Source: Flaccisagitta enflata (taxonomy: Eukaryota). Taken from it: a stretch of 64,000 bases of DNA. Shown piece after piece: positions 13,065 through 55,648 of the stretch (position 1 is the first letter of the stretch; every line of letters starts with the position of its first letter). The notes beneath the pieces were generated by a model, which was not told where the DNA came from, did not search any database, and saw only the letters and a program-made list of their open reading frames with translations. The stretch covers positions 34,534,001 through 34,598,000 of the forward strand of contig OZ231126.1 in assembly GCA_965153355.1 (NCBI GenBank). The letters run 5' to 3'. Position numbers and translations under genes: made by a program.

Positions 13065-13184
13065 CTAGGCAGAGAAGTTCCGCGTGACTTTGCGATTGAG
13101 CACTGGACAGATAGGCCGATAGTTGTTCACCATTTTTGGTCCATTAGAATCTTCAGTAATGCATAAATTGCGCAACGTATTCAA
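13065..13184 (-). CDS. Alpha-carbonic anhydrase exon 7 (120 nt incl. stop)
   Basis: caccatcag| LNTLRNLCITEDSNGPKMVNNYRPICPVLNRKVTRNFSA TAG; NNYRP motif; 90-nt intron 6. The seven exons sum to 783 nt = 260 aa + stop. Confidence 0.95.
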   Translation of the reverse strand: MNTLRNLCITEDSNGPKMVNNYRPICPVLNRKVTRNFSA

Positions 13185-13274
13185 CTGATGGTGAATAATA
13201 AAAATTAAAAAATCGTCAAGGTTTGCTTACTTCTGAAATTACCTTAGGCTGACTCATCACTTAAGGCACCATAC

Positions 13275-13381
13275 CTGTCCTTCAGAGAATTCTACGGGTT
13301 TGAGAAAATTAACCCATTGCACCGATTCAAAAAGCGGAGGAGTAGTTAATGAGCCACGATACGTGAAGAACTCTGACGAAT
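13275..13381 (-). CDS. Alpha-carbonic anhydrase exon 6 (107 nt)
   Basis: attgtccag| ... |gtatgg; DSSEFFTYRGSLTTPPLFESVQWVNFLKPVEFSEGQ; GSLTTPP motif (T199/T200). Confidence 0.96.
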
Positions 13382-14318
13382 CTGGACAATGAAAATAAGT
13401 CACTTGAGGTCACAATATCGTTGCAGACGGGTGGGCAGGGAGATCTAACCAGCGATGTATGGCAGCTTGGAGCCTAGGGACTTCAAAGCAAATTCCAAGC
13501 ACGTCAGCATATCTGAGCACAACAGCTTTTTTACTAATTTGCTATGATTTCTACGCTTTCTAAGCCAATACTAGACAAAATGTAACAAATAAACGAGTGA
13601 TTTTCATCTAGATAAATATTTCTTTATCAAATAGATCTATTTTCAACTGATTCAAAAAAGTATCAAGAAGAACTGTATAGAGTAGGTGGGGGCAAAGCAT
13701 ACTAATCATCAATCAAGCCCTTGTCTCATTTCATTTTGCAAACTTGTTTATTATTTCCCCCAAAGGATTTGATTTAACAAAGCTTTCTGTTGATAGTCTG
13801 TCAATCTGTCGATCTGTCGATCTGTCGGTCTGTCAATCTGTCAGTCTGTCGATCTGTCGGTCTGTCGGTCTCTGTCTCTCTCTCTGTCTGTCTCTCTCTC
13901 TCTCTCTTTCTTCTTTTTTCCCCTTCTTTCAAAATTTGTTCACAACACATTTTCAAGCCCGACAAACTTTCAAGCCCAACAACAGGGACGTCACGTGATG
14001 TCCCTGAAGTCCCTTGCCATACGTCGCTGGATCCAACCCCCAGCCTCCCTCCAACCACTGCACCGTATGTATATTTTACATCATGAATACGCGTTTTTCA
14101 CTTTTTCAACTCGCGCGTGACGGACCAGCGGATGGACGGACGGACAACGCAGCGACGCAGGGTCACAATATCGCACGCACACACACACACGCACATATAC
14201 ATTCACAACTGCATCAATGCGCGTCTTCGAACTTTTCAACTCTTACGCGGACAAAACCTCTGTATAGAGTTGCGTGTCCGCGGCTAAAAACCTTATGAAC
14301 CATGGGTCCATGCCATGG

Positions 14319-15291
14319 TCGGGTGTGTCAATATGCAAAAGGTTTTTTGATAAGACCATCAACATCAAACAGCATAAGATATTAAATTTTAAAACCTTTA
14401 GCGTTTTTATTTCATCAAATTTTATTCATCTTTTATTTTTTTCCAAACCCCTTTTTAGACGCTAACTTGTATATTGCTGTGTTGATGATTTTCTATCAGT
14501 ATCATTGTTACTGAACTTAATCAGATTCAACACATGAATTTTTGATGCTAATTCAAGTTGTTTATTTATCACCAAAGTAGTATAAAGAGACAATAACTAA
14601 TCAGATTCAACACATGAATTTTTGATGCTAATTCAAGTTGTTTATTTATCACCAAAGTAGTATAAAGAGACAATAACTAATCTTTTCTGTAGAAGTTATG
14701 AGTCTTATTTTCACCAAAACTCAAATGCTAGAAATATATATATTCAGATGCTGGAAATATATATATTCTTGACAATCTTTTCTTGCGCTAAAAAAACGGA
14801 AGATGATAGAAATTTAAAAAAATAAAAACGCTAAGTTTTAAAATATTTTTAGTCGCGTGCACGCGACTCTACACCCCGCTTTGTCGGTCCGTCCGTCGGT
14901 CCATCCGTCCGTCCGTCCGTCGGTCCGTCCGTCCGTCACACTTTACTTTTTTTATAATAAAGCATCAACTCTTAGGTCATTTTAAGTCTTTTTTAGTCAT
15001 TAATAGTTATTCTAAGTCATTTTGAGTCATTCTAAGTCATTTTAAGTTATTCAAAGTCATTTTAAGTTATTTCAAGTCATTTTTGGTCGTTAGGTTTTTT
15101 AGACATTTTAAGTCCTTTTTGGACATTTTAAGTCATTCTAAGTCGTTCTAAGTCATTCTAAGTCATTTTAAGTCATTCTAAGTCCTTACCCTGTAAATCT
15201 CGCACGCGACTTATAGGTGTTGGCCTTGTTGTTTACACTCCCTGATGTTGATGATCTAATCAAACATACTTTTGCATATTGACACACCCGA
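14319..15291. mobile_element. Second copy of the TCGGGTGTGTC MITE, with nested HINE (14846-15230) and an 80-bp tandem duplication
   Basis: TSD ATGCCATGG at 14310-14318 and 15292-15300; same TIRs; in CA intron 5. Confidence 0.85.
14846..15230 (+). mobile_element. HINE with (AAGTCATTYT)n core
   Basis: TTTTTAGTCGCGTGCACGCGACT, (GTCC)n, 10-bp repeats, GCACGCGACTTATAGGTGTTGGCCTTGTT. Confidence 0.85.
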
Positions 15292-15525
15292 ATGCCATGG
15301 GTAAATGCGGTCCTCTAGCCTTGCCACAAATCACGCTGTCAGTAGCATGCACACAGCATATTTGCCATCGCACACTATGCCAGGCTCACCTTAGCTATGG
15401 ACTTTTCCTTAGCACTTTTCATATTCCATTTTCGTTAATTTAAGCTCATACTTTGAAAATAAATTTGGACTGGATCAGGAAAAGGTGAGTAAACTGCCAA
15501 TGAAAAGCCAACGAAATGAGGTCAC

Positions 15526-15640
15526 CTGGCAACAAGGTCGAAGGGTCAACAGCTTGAAGATCCACTTCGCAACCCTTGCAAAAACAACTGCGAGGCAAAA
15601 GCTCGAGAAGCTCTTTCATTCCTTGATGCTCATGACCGAC
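15526..15640 (-). CDS. Alpha-carbonic anhydrase exon 5 (115 nt)
   Basis: tcttgttcag| ... |gtgacc; VGHEHQGMKELLELLPRSCFCKGCEVDLQAVDPSTLLP(D); DPxxLLP motif; phases fit both neighbours. Confidence 0.9.
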
Positions 15641-16900
15641 CTGAACAAGACAAAAATTGGACGAGGGAAAAATGCAATTTTTTTTTCTGAGAAAGAAATA
15701 ATTCGAAATCGGAGATCCGAGTTTATCACTGCTACACAGCCTTGGAGTTAAGAAAATCCCCAACGAACGGACTAAAAACTGATCCCTCCATACAATAAAG
15801 ACGACTCCCACCAAAGGGAAAAAGTCGTAAAGGTTTGGGTTTATTATTTTTTTTCTTGTATCTTTTTAGTCGCGGACACGCGACTCTACACCTTGCCATG
15901 TTGGTTGGTCGGTCCGTCCGTCCGTCCGTCAGTCACATTTCTGAATTGCGAGCGGTTTTCGCATTACCGCTCCTGCCCAACTGGCTGCGACTGGATTGCC
16001 GTGTATCCGGCCTTGTTTATCTTGGTACCCCTCTTTGTTGGTTTCTCAGTTTGCTTGTAACTGTGTTTATTTCTTTGTGTCTGTCTCTTTCTCATCACCC
16101 TCATCACTATCATTTTAGGTGCGACAAAAAACCTCTAAAACTGGCTGTGTCCGTCGGTCGGTTGGTTGGTCGGTATGTGGGGTAACGCATTTGTTCGACG
16201 ATCCACACGTCGCACCTTATTGGCCTACTTGTCCTTGTTCTTTTTTACATGATCAAAAAGGCACATTTAATAGAAATTGAATGCAAAAAACAAAAAGTCA
16301 ATATGTAAAATATAGTAATTTCAATTTCAAACAGTTTATTTCCCCAAAAAAGTGACAATGGATACAAAATGTGATTAAGTTAAGAAGGGGAGGACCGTGC
16401 TTAGGCCCCTTACGTCTACTACAATTTGAATTGATCTTAGCGCCATTTGAGAGGACATGGTCAGACTTTCTATACCTGTAGACTTCTTGCATTATCTCAT
16501 TTAACCTAAAAAATATATCAACTATCTCAAACAACTTAATAAAAAAGAAAATGGGATTACTTTGCAGGTCTTAAAAGCCGAAGGATCTTCAATTCTCTAG
16601 ACTTCTTCCCGAATTACAAACACTCCGCAATAGCGGATACGAGTAATAAAAATCCAAAAATTTCTTTGCTCTTATAAATATCTTCATATTTTCAAATTTA
16701 AGTAACTTTTGGCAGTAACAAAAATCCACCTATGTCACAATGCACACGAAGATGAAATTTGGTTTTCACTCCTTTTGAACTATTTCAAACAATTATTTTT
16801 ATTGATATCAAAACTTGTATTTTGTTATATACATTTCCTATTACTATAAATGTTTTCTAAAAAGTTTGAACAACAGAAATTACTGCTTTATTCATTATTT

Positions 16901-17070
16901 AACAAGGCCGGATACACGGCCAATACCAGTTGCGAACGGGTGGGCAGGGGCGGTAATGCGCGTTTTCACACTTTCCAACTCGATCACCATGACGGACTGT
17001 CCAACGGACCGACGGACCGACCGACGGACGGACAAAGCCTCTTATAGAGTTGCGTGTCCGCAACTAAAAA
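16901..17070 (-). mobile_element. Helentron/DINE-1-like HINE, GTTGCG subfamily (representative)
   Basis: AACAAGGCCGGATACACGGC (end hairpin), subTIR AGTTGCG, (GACG/GACC)n microsatellite, AGTTGCGTGTCCGCAACT hairpin, AAAAA; no TSD. Other copies at about 2120-2533, 5180-5420, 5947-6122, 10668, 14010-14290, 39796-39957, 42106-42285. Confidence 0.8.
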
Positions 17071-17857
17071 CAAGTTATGCAATAAAATATGAATACAAAA
17101 AAGAACAAAATTATAAACAACTATGGAGTAAAATTACATCACTCCTCTTTGATGTGAAATTTTGCATTTTCAAAACCATGGCCTGGATCTAAAAAGTGTC
17201 AAAAAAAAGGTTATGTTTTTTAAAATGCAAATTTCTAATTCCTTATGCAAAGATATAATTTAACCCAAGGCAAATCAGATTGCAAAAAAAAAATTTCTTG
17301 AAAAAAACTTTTGTATTTCCAACATCTGTCCTTATATTTCATAAATCATAATTGATAAGAACTATAAAATGAACTTCAATGCAAAACCTTTATAATTATA
17401 AGCTAATGATTTTTTCTAATTGAAGTAAAAATGCATATTAATAAAATCAACAATAATGGGAAAAAAATTCGTTGACTTCATCTTCATCTTTGTATGCACT
17501 GTGAGCTATAACAAATACTTTTTATTTTGTCCCTTAACATTCATTACTGCGAGAATATTTAAAACATTTTTTTTCTTCAAAAAAAGGAAAACTGCATGAA
17601 ACAAATCATAAGTATTAATCTCTACTGCGAGGTTCAACAGCATAAGAATCATCAAACGGAGAAAAGCTAACCAAGCACGGGCAGGAGCAGTGATGTGAAA
17701 AACGCTCGTAAACACCAAAAAATCTAAGCTTTAGATAGTCCGACCAAACAATCGACAGGTTATGGAGTGCACGCCACTATTTATACTCTTAATGGACACT
17801 CTTCTTAACTTAAGGCCTAATTCATTATATTTACTTATTCTATGTCAAAAATCATAC

Positions 17858-17950
17858 CTCAATGAAAGCCCCGAGAACGCAAAGCCCATCAGGCTTGTCA
17901 ACGGCATTACCAATGTTCCCATAGAAGGTGTTATAGTGCACAAGATGGAC
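17858..17950 (-). CDS. Alpha-carbonic anhydrase exon 4 (93 nt)
   Basis: ttgttttcag| ... |gtatga; [31 protein letters not shown]; third Zn ligand (H119) and DGLxVL motif. Confidence 0.96.
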
Positions 17951-18505
17951 CTGAAAACAAGAGCCACAGAGTAAGCTTTGTTTGATCGACTGGATGAATG
18001 CAGCGTGTTTAACCTTATCTTATTGTTGGAATTTATACTGACCCACTGTTAGAGTGGTATTCTTATTTTGATAAAGTACGATGAGAACAAAGACGACTTA
18101 CTGGAGGATAGATTTTTTTTTTCATTTGACAATTTGTAGCAAGGGAAAGTGAAACTTTTGATTTGATTCATGAAAAATTTAAGATCTACATTTGTTAAAA
18201 GATGCCTCTCTCAAATTTCAATTTGTGACTGTATTTCATCAGAAAATTTTATATGAATTCAAAAAAAGTTAGTTCAATTGGATCATTTTTCAAAGTTATT
18301 GGAGTTATAAGCTTTGCTCAAATATAAATCAACATTGTCATTTAAAAAAAAAGCTTGAAAATTACAGTCCTGGACTGGGGACTAGTTTTTTGAAGCATTC
18401 TTGTCGCCTAAAACAACTTGAGAAAATACACAATTGTAAAAAATTGAAAAATATTGAAAAAAGTATTTTTTGATATTAGATGTTCACTAAAATGAATGAT
18501 ACCAG

Positions 18506-18507
<2 letters not shown>

Positions 18508-18590
<83 letters not shown>

Positions 18591-18598
18591 TAATAATA
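18508..18598. repeat. (AAT)n microsatellite
   Basis: Direct reading. Confidence 0.97.
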
Positions 18599-20169
18599 TT
18601 AACAAAAAATTTAAAAAATTTAAAAAAATTCGCAAACTTTTACTACCATTTGCCTATGAAAATCGCCTAAATCCTAGTAACATATTACTACATAAATAAA
18701 CTAATATCTAATAAACAATAAACCAGACTTCAGATTTAATTCGAATTTTGCAGGAGTTGTTGAATAAGTACATTTTTCTTGTACCCCAAATTCATACTTT
18801 TACTACCCTCTACCTATATAAGCCACATAAGTCTCAATTAGATATTACTACAAAAATAAAAGGCAAAGGGTAGAAAAGTTCTGAAAATTAGTACACAAGC
18901 GCAAATTGACCCAAAAATTCATAAACTTTTTAAAAAAATATATGAGTGGTACACTAGGGCATCCAACAACCGCTTGGTTTAAACTAGGAGTACTTGAACT
19001 TTTATTGTGGTTTCTGTTGGTCAAGCCCATGTGGGATCCATGGCAATTGATTGCAAAATTTTTCCAGGATGAAATTTTTTTGAATTTCAATTTTTTTGTG
19101 GGTGGGTGGTACAGGCCATTTTCATCCTTTACCATCAGAATAAGGTAACTTCTAAAGCATTTATCTCCTAAACGAATCAACGAATTGACCTCAACTTGGG
19201 CTCATTTTAAAGAGGAGACACAGCTCTTTAAAATGAGCCCAAATTGAGCTTAATTGCTCAATCCGTTTAAGAGCTACTGTCCTTCAAAGTTGATAATATC
19301 TTAAGCCTTTACCATCAGAACAAGGTAACTTCTAAAGCATTTATCTCCTAAACGAATTGACAAATTGACCTCAACTTGGGCTCATTTTAAAGAGGAGACA
19401 CTGTTCTTTAAAATGAGCCCAAATTCAGCTTAATCGCTCAATTTGTTTAGGAGCTACAGTCCTCCAAAGTTGATAGTATTTTAAGCCTTTACCATCAGAA
19501 CAAGGTAACTTCAAAAGCATTTATCTCCTAAATGAATCGACAAATTGACCTCAACTTGGGCTCATTCTAAAGAGGAGACACAGCTCTTTAAAATGAGCCC
19601 AAATTGAGCCTTATTGCTCAATTCGTTCCTCCAAAGTTGATGTTATTTTCAGCCTTTACCATCAGAACAAGGTAACTTCTAATTTAACTCCTAAACAAAT
19701 TGACAAATTTGGGCTCATTTTAAAGAGGAGACACAGCTTTTTAAATGAGCCCAAATTGAGCTTAATTGCTCAATTCGTTTACCTCCTAAACAAATCGACG
19801 ACTTTGGACTCATTTTAAAGAGGAGACACAGCTTTTTAAATGAGCCCAAATTGAGCTTAATTGCTCAATTCGTTTAAGAGCAACAGTTCTCCAAAGTTGA
19901 TGTTATTTTTTTTTACTGGGGTGTGTATAATTGAGCGGCATTAGATTTTATCAATCCCCCCTCCCCCTTTGATTTTCTTCCCCGCGACCAGCAATATGTG
20001 GCAGCTTGAGGCCTTGGGACTTTGCAGCCAATTCCAAGCACAACATCAAATCTAAGAACGACTGCAGAGATGCAAATTCATGGTAGCAAATAGCAATGCT
20101 ACGCGGCAGACAAGGCCCAAATTGCGGCAGATGCGGCAAGAGAGGATAGGGAAGGTAATTAAAGGGGTA

Positions 20170-20652
20170 AAGAAAATAGTCGCAAAAGCGTTAGATGGTC
20201 AGAGGTACCCATTGCCCCCATGTGAGTGTACGTTGGTTTGAGGTGGTGAGAGGGGCAGCGGCCCCAAAAATGCCAATGACCTATGCTGTTTTTATCACTT
20301 TGAGAGAGCATACATAGAATTTGGGTGTCAAGCCAGGGATTTGAACCCCCAAGATAGAATTCAGGCCGCAAAGCTGGGATTTGTGCCTCAAAGATGGGAT
20401 TAAGGCTTCAGACATTAGTATTTAGGCCTCAGGGCTTGATTTTGGGCCTCTAGGCTAGAATTTGGGCCCCAAGGTTAGAATTTGGATCTCTGGGGTGGAA
20501 TATGGGCCTCACAGCTAGAATTTGGGCCTCAGGACCAGAATTTTGGCATTGAAGCTGGGGGGGGGACCGGGCGGAGGAGGAGAAGAAGAAGGAGAAATTT
20601 CTGCATATGTGAAAGCATAGGTCATCGGCCCCTTCGGGGCCGCTGCCCAAAA
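20170..20652 (-). mobile_element. HINE-like family with GGGCAGCGGCCCC inverted repeat and 21-bp core repeats (representative)
   Basis: GGGCAGCGGCCCC..ATGACCTATGC pairs with GCATAGGTCATCGGCCCCTTCGGGGCCGCTGCCC-AAAA; relatives at about 7516-7900, 21243-21968, 22295-22815, 25578-29256, 27855-28070, 62805-63840. Confidence 0.65.
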
Positions 20653-21242
20653 GTATGACATGAAGGGAACGATTATCTTGTGGAAACAAGAGAAAGAAAG
20701 AAAGTAAGAGGAACAATGTCAGAAAGACAGACAGACAGACAGAAAGACAGACAGACAGAGAGACAGAAAGAAAGAACATACTAAATTAAGAGACAGAATG
20801 ATAGAATCAATAGTGAGTAAAAACTGCAGCAGCTCTTGAGAGACCAATTCTGCAATGATACAGCTTGCAGAATCTGCATCTCTGAACAACTGCAAATCTA
20901 AGCATGACAGCTTTTTAACTGATTTGCTTTGATTTCTATGCTTTCTTTGCCAATACTAAACAAAAGTGGCAAAAGCGGGTAATCTTAGGGTATTCAATCC
21001 AGTGCACTTGTTTTTTCCCGCAAAGGCAAATATTCAATTCAAGCGCACTCAAGTTAAAACATACAAAACCAAGTCCACACCTTGCCCTAAATCTATCTAT
21101 AACCCAACCCTATCCCTAACCCTAAAACCCACCCCATCCCTAACCCTACCCCTAACCCTAAAACACTACCCGCGTAAAAACACTTTAAAACAAAAGACAC
21201 GGATTGAAATCCCTAACGTGACCCAAAAGCGTGGTAAGTCTT

Positions 21243-21810
21243 AGGGATTTTGGCCTCAGAGCTAGGATTTGGGCCTCAAAGCTGGTATTTGGGCCTAAAG
21301 GCTTGGGCGCAGATTGAATTTAGCCTCAAGGCTGGAATTTTGGCCTCACGGCTGAATTTATAGCCTCAAGGCTGGGTTTTAGGCTTCAAGGCTGGGATTT
21401 TGGCCTTAAGGCTAGGATTTAGGTCTCAAGGATAGAATTTGGGCCTCAAGGCTGGGATCTGGGCCTCAATGTTTGGATTTGGACCTCAAGGCTGGTATTT
21501 GGGTCTCAAGGCTGGGATTTGGCCTCAAGGTTGGGATTTGGCCTCCAGGCTGGGATTTGGCCTCAAGGCTGGAATTTGGACCTCAAGGCCGGGATTTGGG
21601 CCTTGAGGTTAGATTTTGGGCCTTAAGGCTGGGTTTTGGGCCTCAAAGCTTGGTTTTGGGTCTCAAGGCTGGGATTTGAGCCTCAAGGCTGTAATTTGGG
21701 CCTTGAGGCTTGGTTTTTGGCCTCAAGGCTAGGATTTGGGTCTCAAGGCTAGGATTTGGGCCTCAAGGCTAGGATTTGGGCCTCAAGGCTGGGATTTGGG
21801 CCTCAAGGGG
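21243..21810. repeat. Degenerate ~21-bp tandem repeat GGCCTCAAGGCTGGGATTTG(G)
   Basis: Direct reading; core of the HINE-like family. Confidence 0.9.
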
Positions 21811-23998
21811 GTACAGACAGATGGACGTAGGAGAAATTCCTGCATATGTGAAAGCATAGGTCATTGGCCCCTTTGGGCCTGGAGGGGATACGGACAGATG
21901 GACGTAGGAGAAATTTCTGCATATGTGAAAGCATAGGTCATTGGCCCCTTTGGGGCCACTTCCCAAAAAGTAACAAATAAAAAAGTGATTCTCATCTACA
22001 ATAAAATCTGAGTTTTGGCATAACAAAATGGTCAGTTGTTACCAACATTTACTAAAAATTTGAAAGCTTTTGAGCTAGTAGTTTTGGATCTACAAAGGTT
22101 TACTATTTGCCATTTCGATTTAAAGACGGTGTATTCTGTAGTAAAGACTGAAAAAAACAACATTGGAGGACTGTTGTTCCTAAACGAATTGAGCAATTAA
22201 GCTCAATTTTGGCTCATTTTGACAAGAATGGATACACGGCTACACCAGCTGCGTGCTGGTGGGCTGGAGCAATGCTAGTAACTAATCATCTAAGGATCGC
22301 ACATGGTCAGTGGAACCCAATGCCCTGTTGGGATTGATCCAATGAAGAAGTGAAGTGAGAGCAAGGCAGCGGCCCCGAAGGGCCAATTTCTTGTAGAACA
22401 CGGGTCAATTACCTGACATCCTGAGGGGACAAATTTCAGGCCTTAGATGACTGATTTAGGCCTTTTGAAGGCATATTTGAAAGCTTGAGGGCAGAGCTAA
22501 GGCTTTGAGCGAGATTTGAGGTTTGGAAGGAAAATCTGAGGCACGGAGGGCTGATTTGATGCTTGGAGGTGAGATTCAGTCTGGAGGGCATATTTGACGT
22601 CTGGAGGGCATATTTGACGTCTGGAGGGCATATTTGAGGTATGGGAAGGCTAATTTGAAGCCTTGATGGTCAATGGGAGGGACAGATGGACGGACAGACA
22701 GATGGATGGATGGATGAAAAGACAGATGGACGGATGGACAGACAGACAGAAGGACATCTGGACATTGCCCCCTGTGTTCTGCAGGACATCGATCCTTTGG
22801 GGCTACTGCCCAAAAAGGGGACCAACTAAGCAACCAGCCAACCAACCGACTGACCAACTGATTGACAGTCTGACATAGCGGGGGGTAAAGTTTCATAGCA
22901 CGCGACTAAAAAGCTTTGTCTCCTCTTATTTTAGAGCCCAAGTTCGATGTTAATTCGTTTAGGAGATAAATGCTTTGGAAGATACCTTATTCTGATGGTA
23001 AAGGCTGAAAATAACATCAACTTTGGAGGACTGTTGCTCTTAAACGAATTGAGCAATTAGGCTCAATTTAGGCTCATTTTAAAGAGCTGTGTCTCATCTT
23101 TAAAATGAGCCCAAGTTGAGGTCAATTTGTCGATTCATTTAGGAGAAAAATGCTTTTGAAGTTACCTTGTTCTGATGGTAAGGGCTTAAAATACTATCAA
23201 CTTTGGAGGACTGTAGCTCCTAAACGAATTGAGCGATTAAGCTGAATTTGGGCTCATTTTAAAGAACAGTGTCTCCTCTTTAAAATGAGCCCAAGTTGAG
23301 GTCAATTTGTCAATTCGTTTAGGAGATAAATGCTTTTGAAGTTACCTTGTTCTGATGGTAAAGGCTTAAAATACTATCAACTTTGGAGGACTGTAGCTCC
23401 TAAACGAATTGAGCGATTAAGCTGAATTTGGGCTCATTTTAAAGAACAGTGTCTCCTCTTTAAAATGAGCCCAAGTTGAGGTCAATTCGTCGATTCTTTT
23501 AGAAGATAAATGCTTTAGAAGTTACCTTGTTCTGATGGTAAAGGATGAAAATGGCCTGTACCACCCACCCACAAAAAAATTGAAATTTAAAAAAATTTCA
23601 TCCTGGAAAAATTTTGCAATCAATTGCCATGGATCCCACATGGGCTTGACCAACAGAAACCACAATAAAAGTTCAAGTACTCCTAGTTTAAAGCAAGCGG
23701 TTGTTGGATGCCCTAGTGGGTAATGTTGTAAATAAAATATGATATAAAACAAAATGATATAAATATGATATAAAATATGATATAAAATATGATATAAAAT
23801 AAAATATGATATAAAATAAATTGTAAATAAAATATGAGTGGTAATGTTGTCCAACTTTCATATCAAAGGTTTTAAACCCACACCGGAACAAACAAACTAG
23901 GTATCACTGCTGACTTATAGACCCCAACAAAACAGATTGATTTAAAATACTTAAAATCTATCCTCCAGTCTAGGAAGTCTTTGCTCCCATGTCCCATG

Positions 23999-24371
23999 TA
24001 CTGTAGCACTGTAACACTTACTGTAGCACTGTAACACTTACTGTAGCACTGTAACACTTACTGTAGCACTGTAACACTTACTGTAGCACTGTAACACTTA
24101 CTGTAGCACTGTAACACTTACTGTAGCACTGTAACACTTACTGTAGCACTGTAACACTTACTGTAGCACTGTAACACTTACTGTAGCACTGTAACACTTA
24201 CTGTAGCACTGTAACACTTACTGTAGCTGTAACACTTACTGTAGCTGTAATACTTACTGTAGCTATAATACTTACAGTAGCTATAATACTTACAGTAGCT
24301 ATAATACTTATTGTAGCTGTAATACTTACTGTAGCTGTAATACTTACTGTAGCTGTAATACTTGATGTAGC
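23999..24371. repeat. 20-bp minisatellite (ACTGTAGCACTGTAACACTT) degrading into an 18-bp variant
   Basis: About 11 perfect 20-mers, then 18-mers lacking 2 nt. Confidence 0.95.
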
Positions 24372-24462
24372 AGATAAAAGAATTTTAACACAAAGCGATC
24401 ACTTTAGTCAAATTGATCCTATTATTCACTAATTGAGACTAATTGGGACTCCATGAACGAAC

Positions 24463-24581
24463 CTCGGCAGGAAAACATCGTCCCTCCAAGGTATGCTCAG
24501 AACCACAGTTGTTATCGCAACCCCAGTGAAAGTGGAATTGAGCCAACTTGAATTCTCCGACAATCGGTCCACCGGTTAAAC
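24463..24581 (-). CDS. Alpha-carbonic anhydrase exon 3 (119 nt)
   Basis: ttgatag| ... |gttcgt; LTGGPIVGEFKLAQFHFHWGCDNNCGSEHTLEGRCFPAE; QFHFHWG (Zn ligands H94/H96) and GSEHT. Confidence 0.97.
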
Positions 24582-24918
24582 CTATCAAGTATTCAGCCAT
24601 AATAAAATGTGACAGACCATTTAAAATCCACCGCGAATCCATCCGCAATGCAATGCCTTTAGTAAATCTTGCGGCTGACCATATGAATGTCATAATACAA
24701 GTGGGGACACAATTGATAAAAGAAATGATGACGCCTTTGGTACCCATTCCACTTACAGCCTTAGTTGAACGTGCTAGAGACTAAAAATTTGGTATATAAG
24801 GCCTAAGAATGAACAGATTTACCACCACCCAGGCGATTTTTGATCGTCCCGAACCAAGATCTGGAGTGGGCTGGAGCAACTCCTGTGCTAACAAATTGAA
24901 CAAAATCCAAGTCAGCAG

Positions 24919-24978
24919 GAGCAGAGCAGAGCAGAGCAGAGCAGAGCAGAGCAGAGCAGAGCAGAGCAGAGCAGAGCA
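24919..24978. repeat. (GCAGA)n microsatellite
   Basis: Direct reading. Confidence 0.95.
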
Positions 24979-25355
24979 ACAGATAAAAAATTGACGCAGA
25001 ATCTTCAATCCCATAGACCTCGCATGCCAAATTTCATGTCTCTCGCGTGTTTGGTTTGGGCTCAGGCAACGATGCGTCCGGTCTATGTCACTGCGTGTAT
25101 TGACTTTGACACTAAACTTGAATAGGCAGACTGATGACAGTAACAAAAGAGGCTCTTTAAAACATTCTAACCAATGTTTGACCTATGCTATTACGTGACA
25201 TCCATGCGGCTGAAAAGTGCCGAAAACTATGATTTTCAAGGAGGCATTACAGACATACGAACGGACCAACGGACGGATAGACTCTCTTATAGAGATGAGA
25301 GGACGCACATCTTAAATAATGTCCCCACCTGTAGTCAATGCTGGCAAAAACTAAC

Positions 25356-25553
25356 TTGATCTCTCGCCATCCACTTGAACCGTGATAGTTTGTCCATTGT
25401 TGACGACTTTCCGAGAGTCATCAGCCTCGTATCTCCATGTAAGTTTGGCGCCATTTAGACCGCGATCCAACACCGAACCAGCGATGGTCAAATCGATGGG
25501 AGACTGTTGAAACCCACGTGCAGCCGGGAAAGACTTGTACCACTGACAAGGTC
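25356..25553 (-). CDS. Alpha-carbonic anhydrase exon 2 (198 nt)
   Basis: ttaccag| ... |gttagt; GPCQWYKSFPAARGFQQSPIDLTIAGSVLDRGLNGAKLTWRYEADDSRKVVNNGQTITVQVDGERS(S); QSPID and NNGx motifs; phases join exons 1 and 3. Confidence 0.95.
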
Positions 25554-25777
25554 CTGGTAATTGAAGATGAAAAGAATGTTTTGGGCAGAAGCACCGATGC
25601 CGAAGGAGAAAAAGTCCTGTAGAACACAGGGGGACTTTTGTTCGTCCATCTGTTCGTTAATTCCCCTCCCTCCATCTAGCCTCTCAGGCCTCTCAGGCCT
25701 GATATTTGCCCTCTCAGGCTTTAAATCAGCTCTCTCAGGGCTTAAATTTACACTCCTAAGCCGGCGATCTGCCCTAT

Positions 25778-28700
25778 TAGTAGGTGGCAAAAAAGTTGCT
25801 GAAATCGAAATAATTATCTCAGTGGATTTGAGGATGCATATGTTAAGGTTTTTGACCTGTAGAATCCAATTCTGAGGTCAAAAATAGCAAATTCTGGCGG
25901 GATCATGGCCAGCAAGTGGCCCTGAATGAGCATATTTAGCCCTGAAAAGGCGTTTTCATCACTTTACTTGTATCTACCAGTATCTATAAGTAAGCACTGA
26001 AAGAATATGATATTCCATTGATTTTGGCATTTTTATACATTGAAATACTATACAGAAGAGTTGTGTCTTGATACTTATCACCAATGATGCTGGTTTAGGG
26101 GCCCTGAAAAAAGCATAATTTTTGTGAAAATCTGTGATTTCGCCTGTTTCAGGGTTTGCTGACACTTGCCAGTTCTGTTTGTGAAAATTGGATTGTTTAA
26201 GCTTTAAAGTATATATTTCATAAAATTTGATGGCAACAAAAGATTTTTTGAATATTTGCTACCAATTCATGACAGTTTTGGGGTCCCAAAATTTGCATAA
26301 TTTTTGCAGAAACACACATTCGGCCATGTACTGATTAGGTCAATGCGAATATCAGGGAGGGTTCACACAGGGTTAATTTTGGAGAGTCCTTATGGAACTC
26401 TGAAATCTGAGGGTTGATTGTGCGTAGAAAAGGTTAGAAATTTTTTTTGGTCTCTCTCTTTTGAGGAAAAATAATCAGTTTTTGATCAAAAATGAGGTAT
26501 CCCATAAGCGAAACGGCGTAAATTGCCAAGATAGAGGCCATTGGTGGTATCCATCAGGACACGGGTTTTGATGATGTATTTTTGCCTTACCCTTAATGGA
26601 AATAATAAGGCTTTTAATGCAGGATTTTTCTCATTTTCAGAGCTTTATACATGATGCTGCTAAGCCAAAAATAAGCGAAAATCATAGAAATTCAAAATCT
26701 TTAAAAACAGATAAAATCGCTCAGCCTGGTGAGTGATAGAATCAAGGCCGGATACACTGCTACCCTAGTCTCTTGCAGTTGGGCAAGGGCAGTGATGTAG
26801 AAGTACACAGGGACATTTGGGCAGGGGCAGCAAGCTCAAAACACTAAAAAATGCCAAAAAAGTAAAATGGGGACCGACCAACTGACAGACGGACAGACAA
26901 ATGGACGGACAAAGGGGGGAGTAGAGTCCCATAGCACAAACCTAAAAATTGTTTCTGATTATTTTAAAGATGTTGGCTTGATTTGGTATTCTCTTGTTAT
27001 TCTAAGATTCCTTTCCCTTGCATGTTATAGAGGCCATAGACACAGCCACCAAAGTTGCGTGGGGGTGGGCAGGGGCAGTGATATAAAATGCTAACCAATC
27101 ATTCAGGCAGGAGCGGTAATGCAAAAAATGCCAAAAACACCAAAAAAGTAGTGTTACTGACAAACTGACCAACCAACCAACATAGCCGGTTATACAGTCC
27201 CGTGCATGCAACAAAAAATTTATTATCCATTATTTTGTATCCATAGAATATTTGCGAAAAAAGGAGAAAATAATAAAAAAACCATAAAACTGCAAAAATC
27301 AGTGCTCAAGACTCAATCCTCTAGGACTTGCAACCTGGCATGGGAGTTTTACTGAAGTTTTTTTTGGGGTTTTTCAGATTTTTTTTTCAAATCAATATTA
27401 GCACTTACATAAGTAAGGGTAGGGCTTCATAGTTAAACTAGAAACCAATTCAACAAAACGGCTGATTTTAACTACTAAGGCAATGTCATCAAAAGCAGAT
27501 AAAAATGATGAGGAAAAAATAGTTAGTTATAAACATTGAACGATTCAAATTGAAAATTAAACTAAAAATATTGAAATCATTACGAACTGAGCAAGCTCTG
27601 TGCTAGATCACCAAGACTGCAGTATCGAGTCATAAAAGATACAAGGCTAGATACATGGCTACCCTAGTCGCTTGCGGGTGGGCAGGAGCAGCGCTGGAAA
27701 AAATCACTAGGGCATCTGGGCAGGAGCCGTATGCTTAAGAAGCTCAAAAACGCCAAAAAAGTAAAGAGGGACCGACCAACCAACCAACCGGCCGATGGAC
27801 CGACATAGCGGGGTGTAGAGTCGCGTAGCACGCGACTAATTAATTGCATTAAAGGTAAACCAGTCACGCAAGGGCAATATGGTCAGCGTTACCCATTGCC
27901 CTGCTTTGTATATTGGTGATTATAGGTGATGGTTAGCAAAGCAATAGCCCCAAAGGGGATGATGTTCTGTAGAACACAAAGGACTTCTGCTCAATTGGAT
28001 TGTGAAGCTATAATTTGAACCTCAAAGCTCAAATCTCAGCTGAGGCTGGGATATGGCTTTGGGGCTGGAATTTTTGACATTTTTAACATTTTTTTCACAT
28101 TTTCTAATATTTTTTAAAATTCTTTAACCTTTTTTAACATTTTTTCTTTTTTACATTTAAAACATTTTTTTGTACATTTTTTAACATTTTCTAACATATT
28201 TGATTTTTTAACATGTTTTTACTCTTTCGTTTGTCATTTCCAGAGGCACATGACTGTTGCCCTCTTGGGCTTGTTATGATCAATTGTTACCTGTAACTTA
28301 GATCTCCACATGTTAGCACTGGATTGATGATAGATAAATGATTCTTGGGGAAAGGGGAGAAACAAAAAAGCATTTGTTTGTTCGTTGACGCCTGTTTGTC
28401 TGTTTGTGTCTGTCTGTCTGTCTATCTATTTGCCTGTATATAATTCTATTTTTTCTAGCTTTTATCTTTCTGCTTGTCTAACTTTCTATTGCTGTCTTCC
28501 TTTCTCTCATGCTGCCTGTGTTTCATAAAAAAAATATTTCATTCAATTATTGTCAAGTTTGGAGATGAGAGAAGCAAATATACTCATTCAGGGCCATTTC
28601 AGGCCTCATTGAGGCTGTTATTGGGCCAGGAAAAGCTTTCAAAGCACCAAAACTTTATTTATGCATGAGAAAAAAGTTACATTTAGATAAAAAAGATTCT

Positions 28701-28908
28701 ATTGTAGTACGTGTCTCTGTCCATCGCAACAATTTGGCCTAATATGCTTGTTATAGGGCTAATATGCTCGTTCCGGGCCACTTGCTGGCCATGATCCGCT
28801 CGGAAATGGCCATTTTTGACTTCACAGATCGATTCTACAGCATGAAAAACATAAAATATGGGTCCTCAAATCGGCTGCGACAATGTCATGGTGTTCTGCT
28901 ACCTACTA
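25778..28908. mobile_element. Mutator-like non-autonomous element, in CA intron 1
   Basis: TAGTAGGTRGCA termini, about 170-bp imperfect TIRs, 9-bp TSD CTGCCCTAT (25769-25777, 28909-28917); related TIR fragment at about 1820-1945. Confidence 0.82.
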
Positions 28909-29322
28909 CTGCCCTATCAAGTCTGAAATTAGCCCTCTCAGGCCTCAAATCTGGCTTCACAAGCCTCATGTCAAGCTTCAGAGCTCAAATCTACCCTCTC
29001 AATCTCCAGATCTGCCCTTTCAGACCCTAAGTCTGCCCTCTCAAGCATTCTACTTGCTGGCCATCTTAGGCCTCTAAGCAGGCATCTCAAGCATCAAAGC
29101 AGCCCTCGGAGGCCTGACGAAAAAAAGTCCCCTGGGTTCTACAGAACTTAGTCACCTTCGAAGCTGCTGCCCTACCTATTTTTTCTCCAATTCACAATCA
29201 TGCAAAGCAGGGCAACGGGTATCAATACTGCCACATATTGCCATTGGGCAACCTGTTCCCAATGCATCTGTCATATTCCATTGGCATTACTAAAAACCTG
29301 TTTGCTGGCAAAATCAATCTGA

Positions 29323-30203
29323 CAGCCGGAGACCCTTGAAAAGCTCAATTCTGAGCTTTTGCTTTTTTTGCGTTTTTTTCTTAATTTCCTATGACCATAC
29401 ATCCTCATTGAGTGGGCTAATTTTTTTTTCTGAGAGAATGTTCGGGCAACAGCTATGTGGTAGAGAAAAATTGGGGTGAAGGTATGGATTTTTATCATTT
29501 TTTTGGAGAAAAATTGAGTGGTGGAACATGAACTTGATTTTCATTTTTTTCATTTTTCACTCAGGGATAAATTTTAAAAGAATTCATTTAGATTGTAAAA
29601 TTCTTACAAGTCTTCAAGAAATAGGCCAAAATAAAGAATGATAAAAAGCTCAGAATTAAGCTTTTTGACTGATAACCAACTCAAAGTTCATTTCTGAGCT
29701 TTTCAAAAGCTCAAAGTTGAGCTTTTCAAGACTGACTGTCGCTCTAAGTCATTAAAGACTCTGTCTTGAAAAGCTCAACTTTGAGCTTTTAAAAAGCTCA
29801 GAAATGAGCTTTTTGAGTTGGTTATCCAGCAAAAAGCTCAAAAAGCTTTATTCTGAGCTTTTCTTTATTAATTTATTTATTTTGGCCTATATCTTGAAGA
29901 CTTGTAAAGAATTTGACAATCTAAATGAATTCCTCGCCCGAAAATCTATCCATGAGTGAAAAATGAAAAAAATCAAAGGGTGCCATATTCGCGGTTTTCA
30001 CCTCTCAATTTTTCTCCAATTAAAAAAAGTGATAAAAATCTATACCTACTCCCCAATTTTTCTCCACCACATAGCTGTTGCCCAAACATTCTCTCAGAAA
30101 AAAAATTAGCCCACTCAATGAGGATATATGGTCGTAGGAAATTAAGAAAAAAACGCAAAAAAAGCAAAAGCTCAGAATTGAGCTTTTCAAGGGTCTCCGG
30201 CTG
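29323..30203. mobile_element. 881-bp foldback MITE with 5-bp TSD, in CA intron 1
   Basis: TCTGA|CAGCCGGAGACCCTTGAAAAGCTC...GAGCTTTTCAAGGGTCTCCGGCTG|TCTGA; arms pair to about 29745. Confidence 0.88.
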
Positions 30204-30467
30204 TCTGAACTTGGATCGAGGCACCAAGTAATCGACTCATCGATGCTAAAATTTTATGGAATGGAACACAGCTATGAAATGAAACTAAGCCACAGTCAAT
30301 TCCATTCAACAACAGCATTGATGATGTGCTAGAGATTGATTTTGCGAGTAGATGGAAATTCAGCTCTTATTGTGCTAATGAGAGATTGGAACAAAATGTT
30401 TTGTCGTCGTAAGGCACAATTTCTCATAAATCGCGCGTTGAAGCACAGGGGTCGTGCGAAATATCAG

Positions 30468-30872
30468 TGTAGTAGTATGGTATAGTAGTAGTGCCCCTAG
30501 GCCAGCGTCCGCTGGCATGGCATTGCGGGGACGTTCAATTTTTTTTTCGGGGCAATGAGGTTATTCATTTTCTTCATCGTTCGTCATTCATCTCATTGCC
30601 ATCATTCATGGGTTGGTTCGCCTTCCACTCGTCATAGCAATTTTTGAATCCGTTTATTGACGTCTGTTTTTTTACTGCTTCTGGAAGTTCATTCCACTTT
30701 TTCGCGGCTCTCACCGTGAAAAAGTGCTTCCGCACAACCAGCCGCGCTCTCTCCATCTACAGGACGTGTTCTTTCCAGGTTTCGCCTTCTTCCGTCACCA
30801 CTGTGTTAACCCTAGTTGCTCCTGCCTCGTGACCAACTTCCACAAACCACTCTTCCTTCTCCACCTTATGAT
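30468..30872 (-). mobile_element. 5'-truncated CR1-type LINE fragment (ORF2 C-terminus, 3'UTR and simple-repeat tail), in CA intron 1
   Basis: Minus-strand translation ...VEKEEWF...ATR...*MERARLVVRKHFFTVRAAKKWNELPEAVKKQTSINGFKNCYD resembles the CR1-clade ORF2 C-terminus (R..FF..R....WN.LP.......S...FK...D); in-frame stop; (CTA)-rich 3' end. Confidence 0.75.
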
Positions 30873-31322
30873 AAACAATTTTATCCATCGTTGTTGCGTA
30901 AGTCAGATACTATCATCATGTTTTGACCTTGTGGCTTGTGCAGAATCACTGAAAGACCATCATGTTTCCAACGAGCGAGAGACACACACACAGGAAGACA
31001 AAGAATTGAAGATAAGAAAGAAGTATTCATCCCTTGATACTGCCGATTTTAATCTTTTTGTGGCGGACCATGGAAAGAAAGACAAAGCAAGGCCTCCAAC
31101 GAAAATCTGAAATTGCATAGACTTAGATAGTCATCTTCAAAGAATTATCGGTTTTAAGACGTTGTTTAAAGTTTTTCAAATCAAGGGAACAGATTTAAAG
31201 AAAGAAAACTAATTTAGTTCAGGATTTTGCAATTCCTAAATCGCCCAAAAACATGTTTCATGTGCCGTAAAACGATTTTCTTTTCTTGTCAGACCGGCAT
31301 ATTCAAACAGTTGAGAACCTAC

Positions 31323-31353
31323 CGTTTTCAGGAGTGTATCCCCAGTTAGCCAT
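31323..31353 (-). CDS. Alpha-carbonic anhydrase exon 1 (31 nt coding)
   Basis: ATG GCT AAC TGG GGA TAC ACT CCT GAA AAC G|gtaggt = MANWGYTPEN(G); alpha-CA N-terminal WGY motif, no signal peptide. Confidence 0.9.
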
Positions 31354-47119: not shown

Positions 47120-48255
47120 AAGCTTAAAAACAACAGTCCTCGACAGTAGTCTATTTGGTGTCCAACCCGGCTACTCAGTCTGACCCGGCTACTCAGTCTG
47201 ACCCGGCCACTCAGTCTGACCCGGCTACTCAGTCTGACCCGGCTACTCAGTCTGACCTGGCTACTCAGTCTGACCCGGCTACTCAGTCTGACCCGGCTAC
47301 TCAGTCTGACCCGGCTACTCAGTCTGACCCGGCTACCAATTGCATACCTTAAAGTCCATGATGGCATACCTTGAATTTCATGGTGGCATACCTTGAAGCC
47401 CATGATGGCATTCCTTGAAGTCCATGAAAGCGTACCTTATAATCCAACAATAAAAAAGATGACAAAAAATCTTCAAATTTTTCCCAAAAAAAAAAAAAAT
47501 TTTAAATTTTTTTCAAAGAAAAACATGTTATCATGTTCACATAAACATGTTATCTTGTATTTGCATGCTAAAACATATACACTCCTTTATTGATCCTGCA
47601 CAAAAAAAAAAACAAATTTTTTTTTTTTTAAAAAATATTTTTTTTTTTTATTGAAAAAAAATTTTTTTTTTTAAATTTTAGTCCAAGAAATAATGTTACT
47701 AGATACATCATAAATACCCTTATATTTTCTTAACCAATACTCAGAATTTAATCTTGCAGGGGAGCTTTAATTGATGCAATGAACCTTCACAACAAGTTTG
47801 AACAACATTGGTGAACCTTTACTACCATTCCCCTATGTAAATTGCACAAGTCTAGGAATTAATATTTCTAGCAAAATACCCTTCTATCTTCTAAACCAAT
47901 ACTCAGAATTTACTGAAATCTTGCATGGGAGCTTTAATTGATGCAATAAACCTTCACAACAAGTTTGAACAACATAGGTGAACCTTTACTACCCTTCCCC
48001 TATGTAAATTGCACAAGTCCAGAAAAAAATATTACTTCAAAAATAATAGGCAAAGGGTATTAAATATTTATGAATGTTGTTGAAAGGTACACAGGTTAGT
48101 AATGCCCTAAAAATAACACTGACCAAGTTTCATCAACATCTGAGTTGTGGTTCTCAAGTTTTTAAGGGTTGACACAAACGAACAACAAACGGCTTACTAC
48201 ACGATCAAGGCTATGTTATAGTCCTCGACGTAAACTGATTGTCGAGGACAAAAAA
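47120..48255 (-). mobile_element. Large HINE-like family with 18-bp and 22-bp repeats and ~180-bp core repeats
   Basis: Left AAGCTT..CAGTCCTCGAC; right hairpin GTCCTCGAC..GTCGAGGAC-AAAAA; inserted in an A-run. Confidence 0.75.
47165..47336. repeat. 18-bp tandem repeat GACCCGGCTACTCAGTCT, 9-10 copies
   Basis: Direct reading. Confidence 0.95.
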
Positions 48256-54188: not shown

Positions 54189-55648
54189 CGAGAAGATACA
54201 TGACACATATCCATAATAGCATACCTTGAAATCTTTGATGGCATACCTTGAAGTCCATGATGGCATACCTTGAAGTCCATGATGGCATACCTTGAAGTCC
54301 ATGATGGCATACCTTGAAGTCCATGATGGCATACCTTGAAGTCCATGATGGCATACCTTGAAGTCCATGATGGCATACCTTGAAGTCCATGATGGCATAC
54401 CTTGAAGTCCATGATGGCATACCTTGAAGTCCATGATGGCATACCTTGAAGTCCATGATGGCATACCTTGAAGTCCATGATGGCATACCTTGAAGTCCAT
54501 GATGGCATACCTTGAAGTCCATGATGGCATACCTTGAAGTCCATAATGGCATACCTTGAAGTCCATAATGGCATACCTTGAAGTCCATAATGGCATACCT
54601 TGAAGTCCATAATGGCATACCTTGAAGTCCATGAGGGCATACCTTGAAGTCCATGAGGGCATACCTTGAAGTCCATGATGGCATACCTTGAAGTCCATAA
54701 TGGCATACCTTGAAGTCCATAATGGCATACCTTGAAGTCCATAATGGCATACCTTGAAGTCCATAATGGCATACCTTGAAGTCCATAATGGCATACCTTA
54801 TAGTCCATAATGGCATACCTTGAAGTCCATAATGGCATACCTTGAAGTCCATAATGGCATACCTTGAAGTCCATAATGGCATACCTTGAAGTCCATAATG
54901 GCATACCTTGAAGTCCATAATGGCATACCTTGAAGTCCATAATGGCATACCTTGAAGTCCATAATGGCATACCTTGAAAAAAAATTCAAAAAAAAAAATC
55001 CAAAAAAAAAATTTCCAAAAAAAAAATTTCAAAGAAAAAAAAATTTCAAAAAGAAAAAAAAATTCAAAATAAAAATTGCTGAAGTCCTAGTAAAATATTA
55101 CCACATAAATAAGCTAATATCTCATAAAACAGACTTCAGATTTAATTCGAATTTTGCAGGGGCTGTTCAATTGATATCTTTTACTTGTATACCAAATTAG
55201 AGACAAATTCACATACCTTTACTACCCTTTGCCTATGTAAATTGCCTAAGTCCTAGTAACAAGTTGCTAGATAAATAAGCTATTATCTCATAAACCAGAC
55301 TTCAGATTTAATTCGAATTTTGCAGGGGTTGTTTGTTTAGTACCCTTTACTTGTAAACCAAATTATGAAAAAATTCACAAACTCTTACTACCCTCTACCT
55401 ATGTAAATCGCATAAGTCCTAGCTAAATATTGCTACAAAAATAATAGGCAAAGGGTATTAAATGTTAATGAATTTTTTTGAAAATTGGTACACAAGCTCC
55501 TATTGACCTATAAACAACACCAGCAAAGTTTCATGAACATCTGAAGTCTGGTTCAAAAGATATGAGAGGGTTTTAAACGACAGACAGACAGACTACACGA
55601 TCAGGTCCATCACATAGTCCCACGGATCTGATTGCCGTGGGACAAAAA
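54189..55648 (-). mobile_element. Truncated copy of the large HINE-like family with a 22-bp satellite
   Basis: Right end ACAGACTACACGATCAGGTCC..GTCCCACGG..CCGTGGGAC-AAAAA; left part starts internally at CGAGAAGATAC (compare 57089). Confidence 0.75.
54218..54977. repeat. 22-bp tandem satellite GGCATACCTTGAAGTCCAT(G/A)AT, about 34 copies
   Basis: Head-to-tail, no spacers. Confidence 0.97.

What the first reader, a model, noticed from the sequence alone, without database searches (positions are those of the whole stretch)
13065..31353. Cysteine-rich cytosolic CA (10 Cys in 260 aa) with CxCxxC and CxxxC clusters
Seen: Cys in GPCQW, WGCDNNCG, GRCF, GLCV, RSCFCKGCE, NLCI and RPICP (replacing the usually conserved Gln of RPxQP); no signal peptide. 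Known: human CA II has one Cys, and CA III/CA VII use surface Cys for S-glutathionylation. Inference: together with loss of His64, this may be a CA repurposed for redox buffering, thiol/sulfide chemistry or secondary metal binding. This is my best candidate for undescribed protein-level biology here.
Basis: partly seen in the sequence, partly recalled or inferred. Interest (0 to 1): 0.7.

Follow-up and report, generated by a model that had tools for sequence, protein, structure and literature searches.

The report
Cysteine-rich cytosolic alpha-carbonic anhydrase
This is an intact, spliced gene for a cytosolic-type zinc carbonic anhydrase of a marine animal lineage; its 10 cysteines are real and most are shared with close relatives, but other fish and invertebrate versions carry up to 9, so it is likely an ordinary CO2-hydrating enzyme, with one shifting cysteine patch near the active-site rim as an untested lead.

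Summary
Observation confirmed: seven minus-strand exons give 260 aa with 10 Cys, no signal peptide, and Gln at the His64 position. RNA contigs confirm splicing, Gln64 and three of the Cys. The zinc ligands, gatekeepers and CO2 pocket are intact, and an orthologue folds like CA II (TM 0.93).

The repurposing idea is weak. Human CA II is a poor baseline: 106 other animal CA II-like proteins average 4.9 Cys, maximum 9. The 'conserved' Gln249 is Gln in 43 and Cys in 25 of them, and 50 lack His64. Among orthologues, 24 of 28 keep His64 with a similar Cys set. Cys98 is private (0 of 29), so the CxxxC is not conserved. None of the CA III/VII reactive positions is Cys.

One lead remains. Positions 171, 229 and 233 hold exactly two Cys in 25 of 30 sequences and never three. 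They map to loops beside His64. The test is post hoc (p 0.002-0.02 before correction), and no model coordinates were available to check geometry.

Verdict: new member of a known kind; interest 0.22.

The parts
31323..31353 (-). Exon 1 (coding part), start codon, residues 1-10
   Evidence: collinear with orthologues; its joint to exon 2 was not seen in RNA
25356..25553 (-). Exon 2, residues 11-76: Cys13, QSP motif, Gln65 (His64 position, codon 25392-25390)
   Evidence: RNA contigs
24463..24581 (-). Exon 3, residues 77-116: zinc ligands His93 and His95, Glu105, Cys98, Cys102, Cys112
   Evidence: 774-nt intron joint seen in 3 of 4 runs laid
17858..17950 (-). Exon 4, residues 117-147: zinc ligand His118, Cys140
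   Evidence: a 93-nt gap between exons 3 and 5 in a 383-nt RNA contig (same contig inferred from equal length and depth)
15526..15640 (-). Exon 5, residues 148-185: CxCxxC (Cys166, Cys168, Cys171)
   Evidence: joined to exon 6 in run X1 record 1; no Pfam hit on its own
13275..13381 (-). Exon 6, residues 186-221: Thr198/Thr199 (CA II Thr199/Thr200)
13065..13184 (-). Exon 7, residues 222-260 and stop: Cys229 in the 230-240 loop, Cys247 in RPICP
   Evidence: reads of a related organism differ synonymously at the Cys247 codon (13107)

Best explanation
The gene encodes a cytosolic-type alpha-carbonic anhydrase with an intact three-histidine zinc site that likely hydrates CO2 in the usual way, and its cysteines are likely free thiols inherited as a lineage trait rather than a new active centre. 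Shown: the gene structure, splicing, and the residues His94/96/119, Glu106, Thr199 and the pocket Val121/Val143/Leu198/Trp209 (CA II numbering). Inferred from the known alpha-CA mechanism: zinc-bound hydroxide attacks CO2 and bicarbonate is released. With Gln at 64, proton export would be slower and rely on water or buffers. Cys140 and Cys166 likely fill core positions (Ala and Ile/Val elsewhere), and Cys247 fills a position that tolerates Gln, Cys, Leu, Met or Val. The others are likely exposed and may be oxidised or glutathionylated incidentally.
For: Pfam PF00194 matches 5 of 6 exons tested, 4 over the cut-off. Catalytic and pocket residues are invariant in all covered members of 29 orthologous and 7 paralogous sequences. 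The orthologue P0003 model has pLDDT 95.8, TM 0.93 to CA II, and Z 39.4 with rmsd 1.2 over 254 residues to CA XIII. Other animal CA II-like proteins have 1-9 Cys, with 17 of 106 at 7 or more, and 72 of 106 have Cys in the 230-240 loop. His64 is replaced in 50 of 106 and in 4 of 6 red-coral CAs (PMC4981384, section read). Orthologues P0001 and P0012, nearly identical, differ His/Gln at 64. It was the only short CA II-like gene I recognised among 47 exon matches in this genome (a lower bound, not all modelled).
Against: None of the 106 outside CAs reaches 10 Cys, whereas 24 of 27 near-full-length orthologues have 9-11. Cys102 sits in a column that is 78% polar or charged elsewhere, yet is kept in 29 of 29 orthologues and 6 of 7 paralogues. 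The two-of-three pattern at 171/229/233 is more regular than independent change gives. There is a weak family-wide link between His64 loss and Cys number. No activity was measured.
Confidence: 0.7

Rival explanations
1. It is a working CA with a second, selected role as a redox thiol protein. Cys168 plus any two of 171/229/233 would form a dithiol/trithiol patch on the loops beside His64, which is reversibly oxidised or glutathionylated and buffers oxidants or tunes proton transfer, as CA III and CA VII do with other cysteines.
For: Exactly two Cys at 171/229/233 in 25 of 30 sequences, never three, in all three pairings. 15 of 7,770 column triples match this regularity, and tree simulations give p 0.004-0.02. 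In 106 outside CAs the pairs 168-233, 168-229 and 171-233 rank 38, 102 and 302 of 32,640 by covariation, also without vertebrates. Lys170, Phe231, Asn232 and His64 line one pocket in CA II (PMC8510595 passages), and 230-240 is a surface loop (PMC4519908 passage). Limpet CAs have Cys at the same two loop positions.
Against: The pattern was spotted after looking. The test used 11 representatives and left out the two early-branching lineages that have none of the three (10 of 13 with them). Pair 171-229 ranks only 10,021. The covariation set is small (effective n 78) with a gappy loop. CA III/VII positions 183, 188 and 217 are not Cys. No out-of-sample orthologues were found.
Confidence: 0.17
2. 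The CxCxxC and neighbouring loop cysteines, or Cys13/102/112/247, bind a second Zn, Cu or Cd ion, making the enzyme a metal store or a shield for its catalytic zinc.
For: A constant three Cys among 168/171/229/233 in most crown sequences, with His or acidic residues at the free position in some. Many invertebrate CAs have acidic Cys-rich 230-240 loops. Secondary Cu and Hg sites are known on CA II (PMC4730368 passages).
Against: Metal ligands are normally fixed in position (own knowledge), whereas Cys171 is kept in 14 of 29, Cys229 in 15 of 29 and Cys98 in 0 of 29. Cys166 occupies a hydrophobic column. Cys13, 102, 112 and 247 do not co-occur in outside CAs.
Confidence: 0.08
3. The protein has left CO2 hydration for thiol or sulfide chemistry, with His64 loss as the sign of that change.
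For: Gln at 64 is real. His64-less CAs average 5.9 Cys against 4.0 in the raw comparison.
Against: No Cys lines the active-site cavity positions listed. The zinc ligands, gatekeepers and pocket are invariant. His64 is present in 24 of 28 orthologues, and Gln arises by one base change in three separate sequences (window, P0012, P0004). The raw comparison is confounded by kinship.
Confidence: 0.04

Closest known systems
Vertebrate cytosolic alpha-CAs (CA II, CA XIII)
   Same: Fold (TM 0.93 to CA II; Z 39.4 to CA XIII), 260-residue length, zinc triad, gatekeepers, pocket, no signal peptide; 41-45% identity.
   Different: 10 Cys against 1 in human CA II (sequence shown); Gln at 64; Ser at 206; Thr at 65 and 67, Ile at 131.
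Fish and mollusc cytosolic CAs (for example Opsanus beta P0137, Patella caerulea P0059, Mytilus P0066)
   Same: 8 Cys each in the domain; Cys at CA II position 14 in all three; Cys at 230 in toadfish and limpet, and at 234 in limpet; His64 replaced in the two molluscs.
   Different: Only 41-46% identical and in other clades. They lack the CxCxxC at 167-172 and Cys103.
CA III and CA VII (S-glutathionylated cytosolic CAs)
   Same: Cytosolic with extra Cys (5 and 4; PMC6098850 passages); CA III also lacks His64 (Lys in the alignment read).
   Different: Reactive positions 183, 188 and 217 are Thr, Ser and Glu here, and the CA VII pair 54/178 is absent.
Cnidarian secreted alpha-CAs with the second predicted disulfide (CruCA2 Cys138-Cys284)
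   Same: Cys98 lies at the same position, directly after the HWG motif (PMC4981384 section and supplement).
   Different: The partner position (CA II 242) is Val here and in the ten orthologues listed; there is no signal peptide and no 23-203 disulfide.
Unnamed sister paralogue with an N-terminal extension (P0006, P0040-P0045; two copies on G000 contig C2)
   Same: Same lineage-specific clade (SH-aLRT 100); shares Cys102, Cys140 and Cys247.
   Different: About 50-55% identical, 5-6 Cys, a 36-114 residue extension that may be a targeting peptide (not tested), position 64 mostly not His.

Membership tests
alpha-carbonic anhydrase (PF00194) | Profile match to PF00194 | tested here: met
   5 of 6 exon translations match, 4 above the 27-bit cut-off
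alpha-carbonic anhydrase (PF00194) | Zinc ligands His94, His96, His119 | tested here: met
   His93, His95, His118
alpha-carbonic anhydrase (PF00194) | Gatekeepers Glu106 and Thr199; hydrophobic pocket Val121, Val143, Leu198, Trp209 | tested here: met
alpha-carbonic anhydrase (PF00194) | Alpha-CA fold | tested here: met
   Model of orthologue P0003 (81% identical), not of the window protein itself:
alpha-carbonic anhydrase (PF00194) | CO2 hydration activity | not testable with these tools
   needs an enzyme assay
cytosolic alpha-CA subgroup | No signal peptide, membrane segment or Cys23-Cys203 disulfide | tested here: met
   hydropathy scan; Ala and Leu at 23 and 203; no dedicated predictor was run
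fast CA II-type enzymes | His64 proton shuttle | tested here: not met
   Gln65 in genome and RNA; His in 24 of 28 orthologues
CA III / CA VII redox-type CAs | Surface Cys at 183 plus 188 or 217 | tested here: not met
   Thr, Ser, Glu at these positions (188 read across a one-column gap); positions from PMC6098850
CA III / CA VII redox-type CAs | S-glutathionylation of reactive thiols | not testable with these tools
   needs thiol chemistry or mass spectrometry
CA-related proteins (CARPs) | Loss of one or more zinc histidines | tested here: not met
   all three present
Cys-ligated secondary metal site | Three or four conserved Cys/His within binding distance | tested here: inconclusive

The most novel reading that the evidence does not exclude
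In this lineage the cytosolic CA carries a selected thiol patch at the rim beside the proton shuttle: Cys168 plus any two of positions 171, 229 and 233, swapped among species but held at constant number. It would act as a redox or metal switch on proton transfer, making His64 dispensable, and the Cys-rich 230-240 loops of fish, limpet and other invertebrate CAs would be versions of the same overlooked module.
Probability: 0.15. Interest if true: 0.55.

Novelty: new member of a known kind. Interest (0 to 1): 0.22.

Why it matters
As it stands it adds an unannotated, lineage-specific pair of intracellular alpha-CAs. It also shows that the one-cysteine human CA II is the outlier among animal cytosolic CAs. 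If the rim patch proves functional, it would give a concrete residue set for testing redox or metal control of proton transfer in aquatic-animal CAs, whose metal sensitivity is discussed in PMC4730368 (passages read).

Tried and rejected
CxxxC (98-102) as a conserved motif: rejected, Cys98 is in 0 of 29 orthologues and 0 of 7 paralogues.

A 99-242 disulfide as in cnidarian secreted CAs: rejected, the partner is Val.

A Cys102-Cys247 or Cys13/102/112/247 cluster: no co-occurrence in 106 outside CAs (2 with both 102 and 247), and low covariation ranks. Proximity was not testable.

A genome-wide Cys bias: not seen, 1.8% in enolase and PGK exons, and the sister paralogue has 5-6 Cys.

N-terminal extensions in P0015 and P0023 look like read-through of the 5' leader and were ignored.

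Direct geometry: the fold tool returned no coordinates, and the spliced window protein was not folded; an orthologue with 9 of the 10 Cys positions stood in.

More orthologues for an out-of-sample test: one intron-containing fragment, and nothing above 50% identity full-length among 80 metagenome loci kept. The 50%-representative search returned mostly multi-domain CAs and was not used for counts.

Rows dropped: P0051 (426 aa) from the 107 outside hits; only the best 120 of 540 hits were listed; near-duplicates and fragments were left out of the trees.

Papers: ten searches, listings only unless cited. None showed a study of this clade or of a Cys patch at 169-172/230-234. One search paired the enzyme with a recalled, untested phylum guess (chaetognath) and gave 8 unrelated listings; no call identified the organism. 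PMC4400229 and PMC6010095 were not held, and subscription literature on fish CA thiols was not searchable.

Earlier scan findings: none.
Full report
Observation. The quoted peptides all lie on the minus strand. A seven-exon model with GT-AG introns gives an open 783-nt CDS of 260 residues, with Cys at 13, 98, 102, 112, 140, 166, 168, 171, 229 and 247. In CA II numbering, taken from an alignment to a mammalian CA2, these are 14, 99, 103, 113, 142, 167, 169, 172, 230 and 249. There is no hydrophobic leader or membrane segment. RNA contigs from marine plankton runs show the exon 2-3 joint in 3 of 4 runs and the exon 5-6 joint in one. One contig with no differences covers Gln65, Cys98, Cys102 and Cys112. 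The exon 1-2 and 6-7 joints were not seen in RNA and rest on collinearity with orthologues.

What it is. Five of six exon translations match PF00194. The zinc ligands, Glu106, Thr199, Glu117, His107 and the pocket residues are present and invariant across the clade. I could not fold the spliced protein, so I folded orthologue P0003 (81% identical, 9 of the 10 Cys positions): pLDDT 95.8, TM 0.93 to CA II, Z 39.4 to CA XIII. In a quick tree of 128 sequences the protein falls in a long-branched clade with no taxonomically named member. That clade splits into short cytosolic-type proteins (69-87% identical) and a paralogue with an N-terminal extension. This genome has two copies of the paralogue on contig C2. 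Among 47 exon matches to the family, the window gene was the only short CA II-like gene I recognised (a lower bound). No call identified the organism.

Is 10 Cys unusual? Moderately. The 106 best outside homologues (fish, molluscs, amphioxus, unnamed invertebrates) average 4.9 Cys; 17 have 7 or more, 3 have 9 and none has 10. In the clade, 24 of 27 near-full-length orthologues have 9-11, so the richness is a clade trait. Enolase and PGK exons of the same genome have 1.8% Cys against 3.8% here (p 0.02-0.06). Human CA II, with one Cys, is at the bottom of the range.

Cys by Cys.
- Kept in 29 of 29 orthologues: 102, 140, 166, 247.
- Mostly kept: 168 (27 of 29), 13 (26 of 27), 112 (26 of 29).
- Half kept: 171 (14 of 29), 229 (15 of 29).
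- Private: 98 (0 of 29).
Position 140 is Ala or Cys elsewhere, and 166 is Ile, Val or Leu in 104 of 106, so both are likely core positions (inference from column make-up). Position 247 is Gln in only 43 of 106 and Cys in 25. Cys at 13, 112 and 229 recurs in fish and molluscs, and human CA VB has Cys at 113 (supplement alignment of PMC4981384). The clade is well conserved overall, and Cys in variable columns are not significantly better kept than other residues (5 of 8 against 42 of 100, p 0.22, using six homologues, one per cluster). Cys98 sits where cnidarian secreted CAs have one half of a predicted disulfide, but its partner position is Val. The reactive positions of CA III and VII (183, 188, 217; PMC6098850 passages) are not Cys. 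CA VII's intramolecular disulfide is considered an in vitro artefact because disulfides are rare in the cytosol (PMC7470082 passages).

His64. The loss is real but shallow. His is present in 24 of 28 orthologues, Gln needs one base change and appears in three separate sequences, and two near-identical sequences differ His/Gln. Outside the clade 50 of 106 lack His64. PMC4981384 says such enzymes have much lower hydrase efficiency (passage); rescue by imidazole buffers is my recall. After allowing for kinship the binary test is not significant, and my own contrasts on the quick tree give 9 up, 2 down, 2 tied, p 0.024. That is a weak family-wide trend and does not explain this clade, where the Cys set is shared by sequences that keep His64.

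The one open lead. Positions 171, 229 and 233 (CA II 172, 230, 234) hold exactly two Cys in 25 of 30 sequences, one in 2, none in 3 and all three in none. All three pairings occur, and the tree needs several switches. Among 11 lineage representatives 10 have exactly two; 15 of 7,770 triples of similarly variable columns do as well, and simulations of independent sites give p 0.004-0.02. Caveats: I noticed the pattern before testing it, and I left out the two early-branching lineages that have none (10 of 13 with them). A correction for about 20 possible Cys triples would erase most of the signal. Independent hints that these loops touch: in the 106 outside CAs, pairs 168-233, 168-229 and 171-233 rank 38, 102 and 302 of 32,640 by covariation, with a Lys/Glu to Asp/Lys swap at 171/233, though 171-229 ranks 10,021. 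In CA II, Lys170, Phe231, Asn232 and His64 line one pocket (PMC8510595 passages), and 230-240 is a mobile surface loop (PMC4519908 passage). Cys in that loop is common in animals: 72 of 106 have at least one and 44 at least two.

Mechanism and verdict. Most likely (0.7) this is the lineage's ordinary cytosolic CO2/bicarbonate enzyme, probably slower in this species for lack of His64, with reduced thiols of which some fill core positions and some are exposed. A selected redox patch at the rim (0.17) or a second metal site (0.08) is not excluded; full repurposing is unlikely (0.04). It is a member of the cytosolic alpha-CAs by every sequence and fold feature tested. It is not a member of the CA III/VII type by position, although it could work like them. 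Ten paper searches (listed under Tried and rejected) showed no study of this clade; subscription literature was outside the library. Novelty: new member of a known kind. Interest 0.22.

Noticed in passing
window 18952-23718 (intron 3 of the gene): A 4.8-kb element with 676-nt, 96% complementary terminal arms built of 180-nt tandem units, ends CACTAG...CTAGTG, flanked on both sides by GGTA. It looks like a non-autonomous DNA transposon of the CACTA/Chapaev kind (label recalled); no long coding frame was seen inside.
   Followed up: partly
window 29318-30208 (intron 1): An 890-nt element with 93-97% complementary arms of about 190 nt, MITE-like; a second, weaker inverted pair lies at 25813-25936 / 28761-28884.
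   Followed up: no
G000:C2:17459000-17468900 (L137) and G000:C2:17563500-17573400 (L136): Two near-identical copies, about 104 kb apart, of the sister CA paralogue with a 55-residue N-terminal extension and Arg at position 64. Whether both are intact, and whether the extension targets mitochondria, was not tested.
   Followed up: partly
P0059, P0064, P0127, P0146, P0074, P0088 and teleost CAs: The 230-240 surface loop of many animal cytosolic CAs is acidic and Cys-rich; one column near CA II 240 is Cys in 54 of 106, and some loops carry 3-4 Cys.
   Followed up: partly
window 54210-54978, 57451-58513 and 47342-47438: Long, 97% homogeneous 22-nt tandem arrays that give open frames of up to 394 codons on the minus strand; probably satellite DNA.
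   Followed up: no
window about 15860-16200, 16920-17070, 25250-25310, 27640-27840: A short interspersed repeat family with GGAC/CCGA microsatellite cores draws very high depth in RNA runs, including raw reads of a related organism.
   Followed up: no
G000:C3:53572564-53573254 and G000:C3:95985569-95986259: Two identical-scoring copies of another alpha-CA gene 42 Mb apart on one contig; a recent duplication or an assembly duplicate.
   Followed up: no
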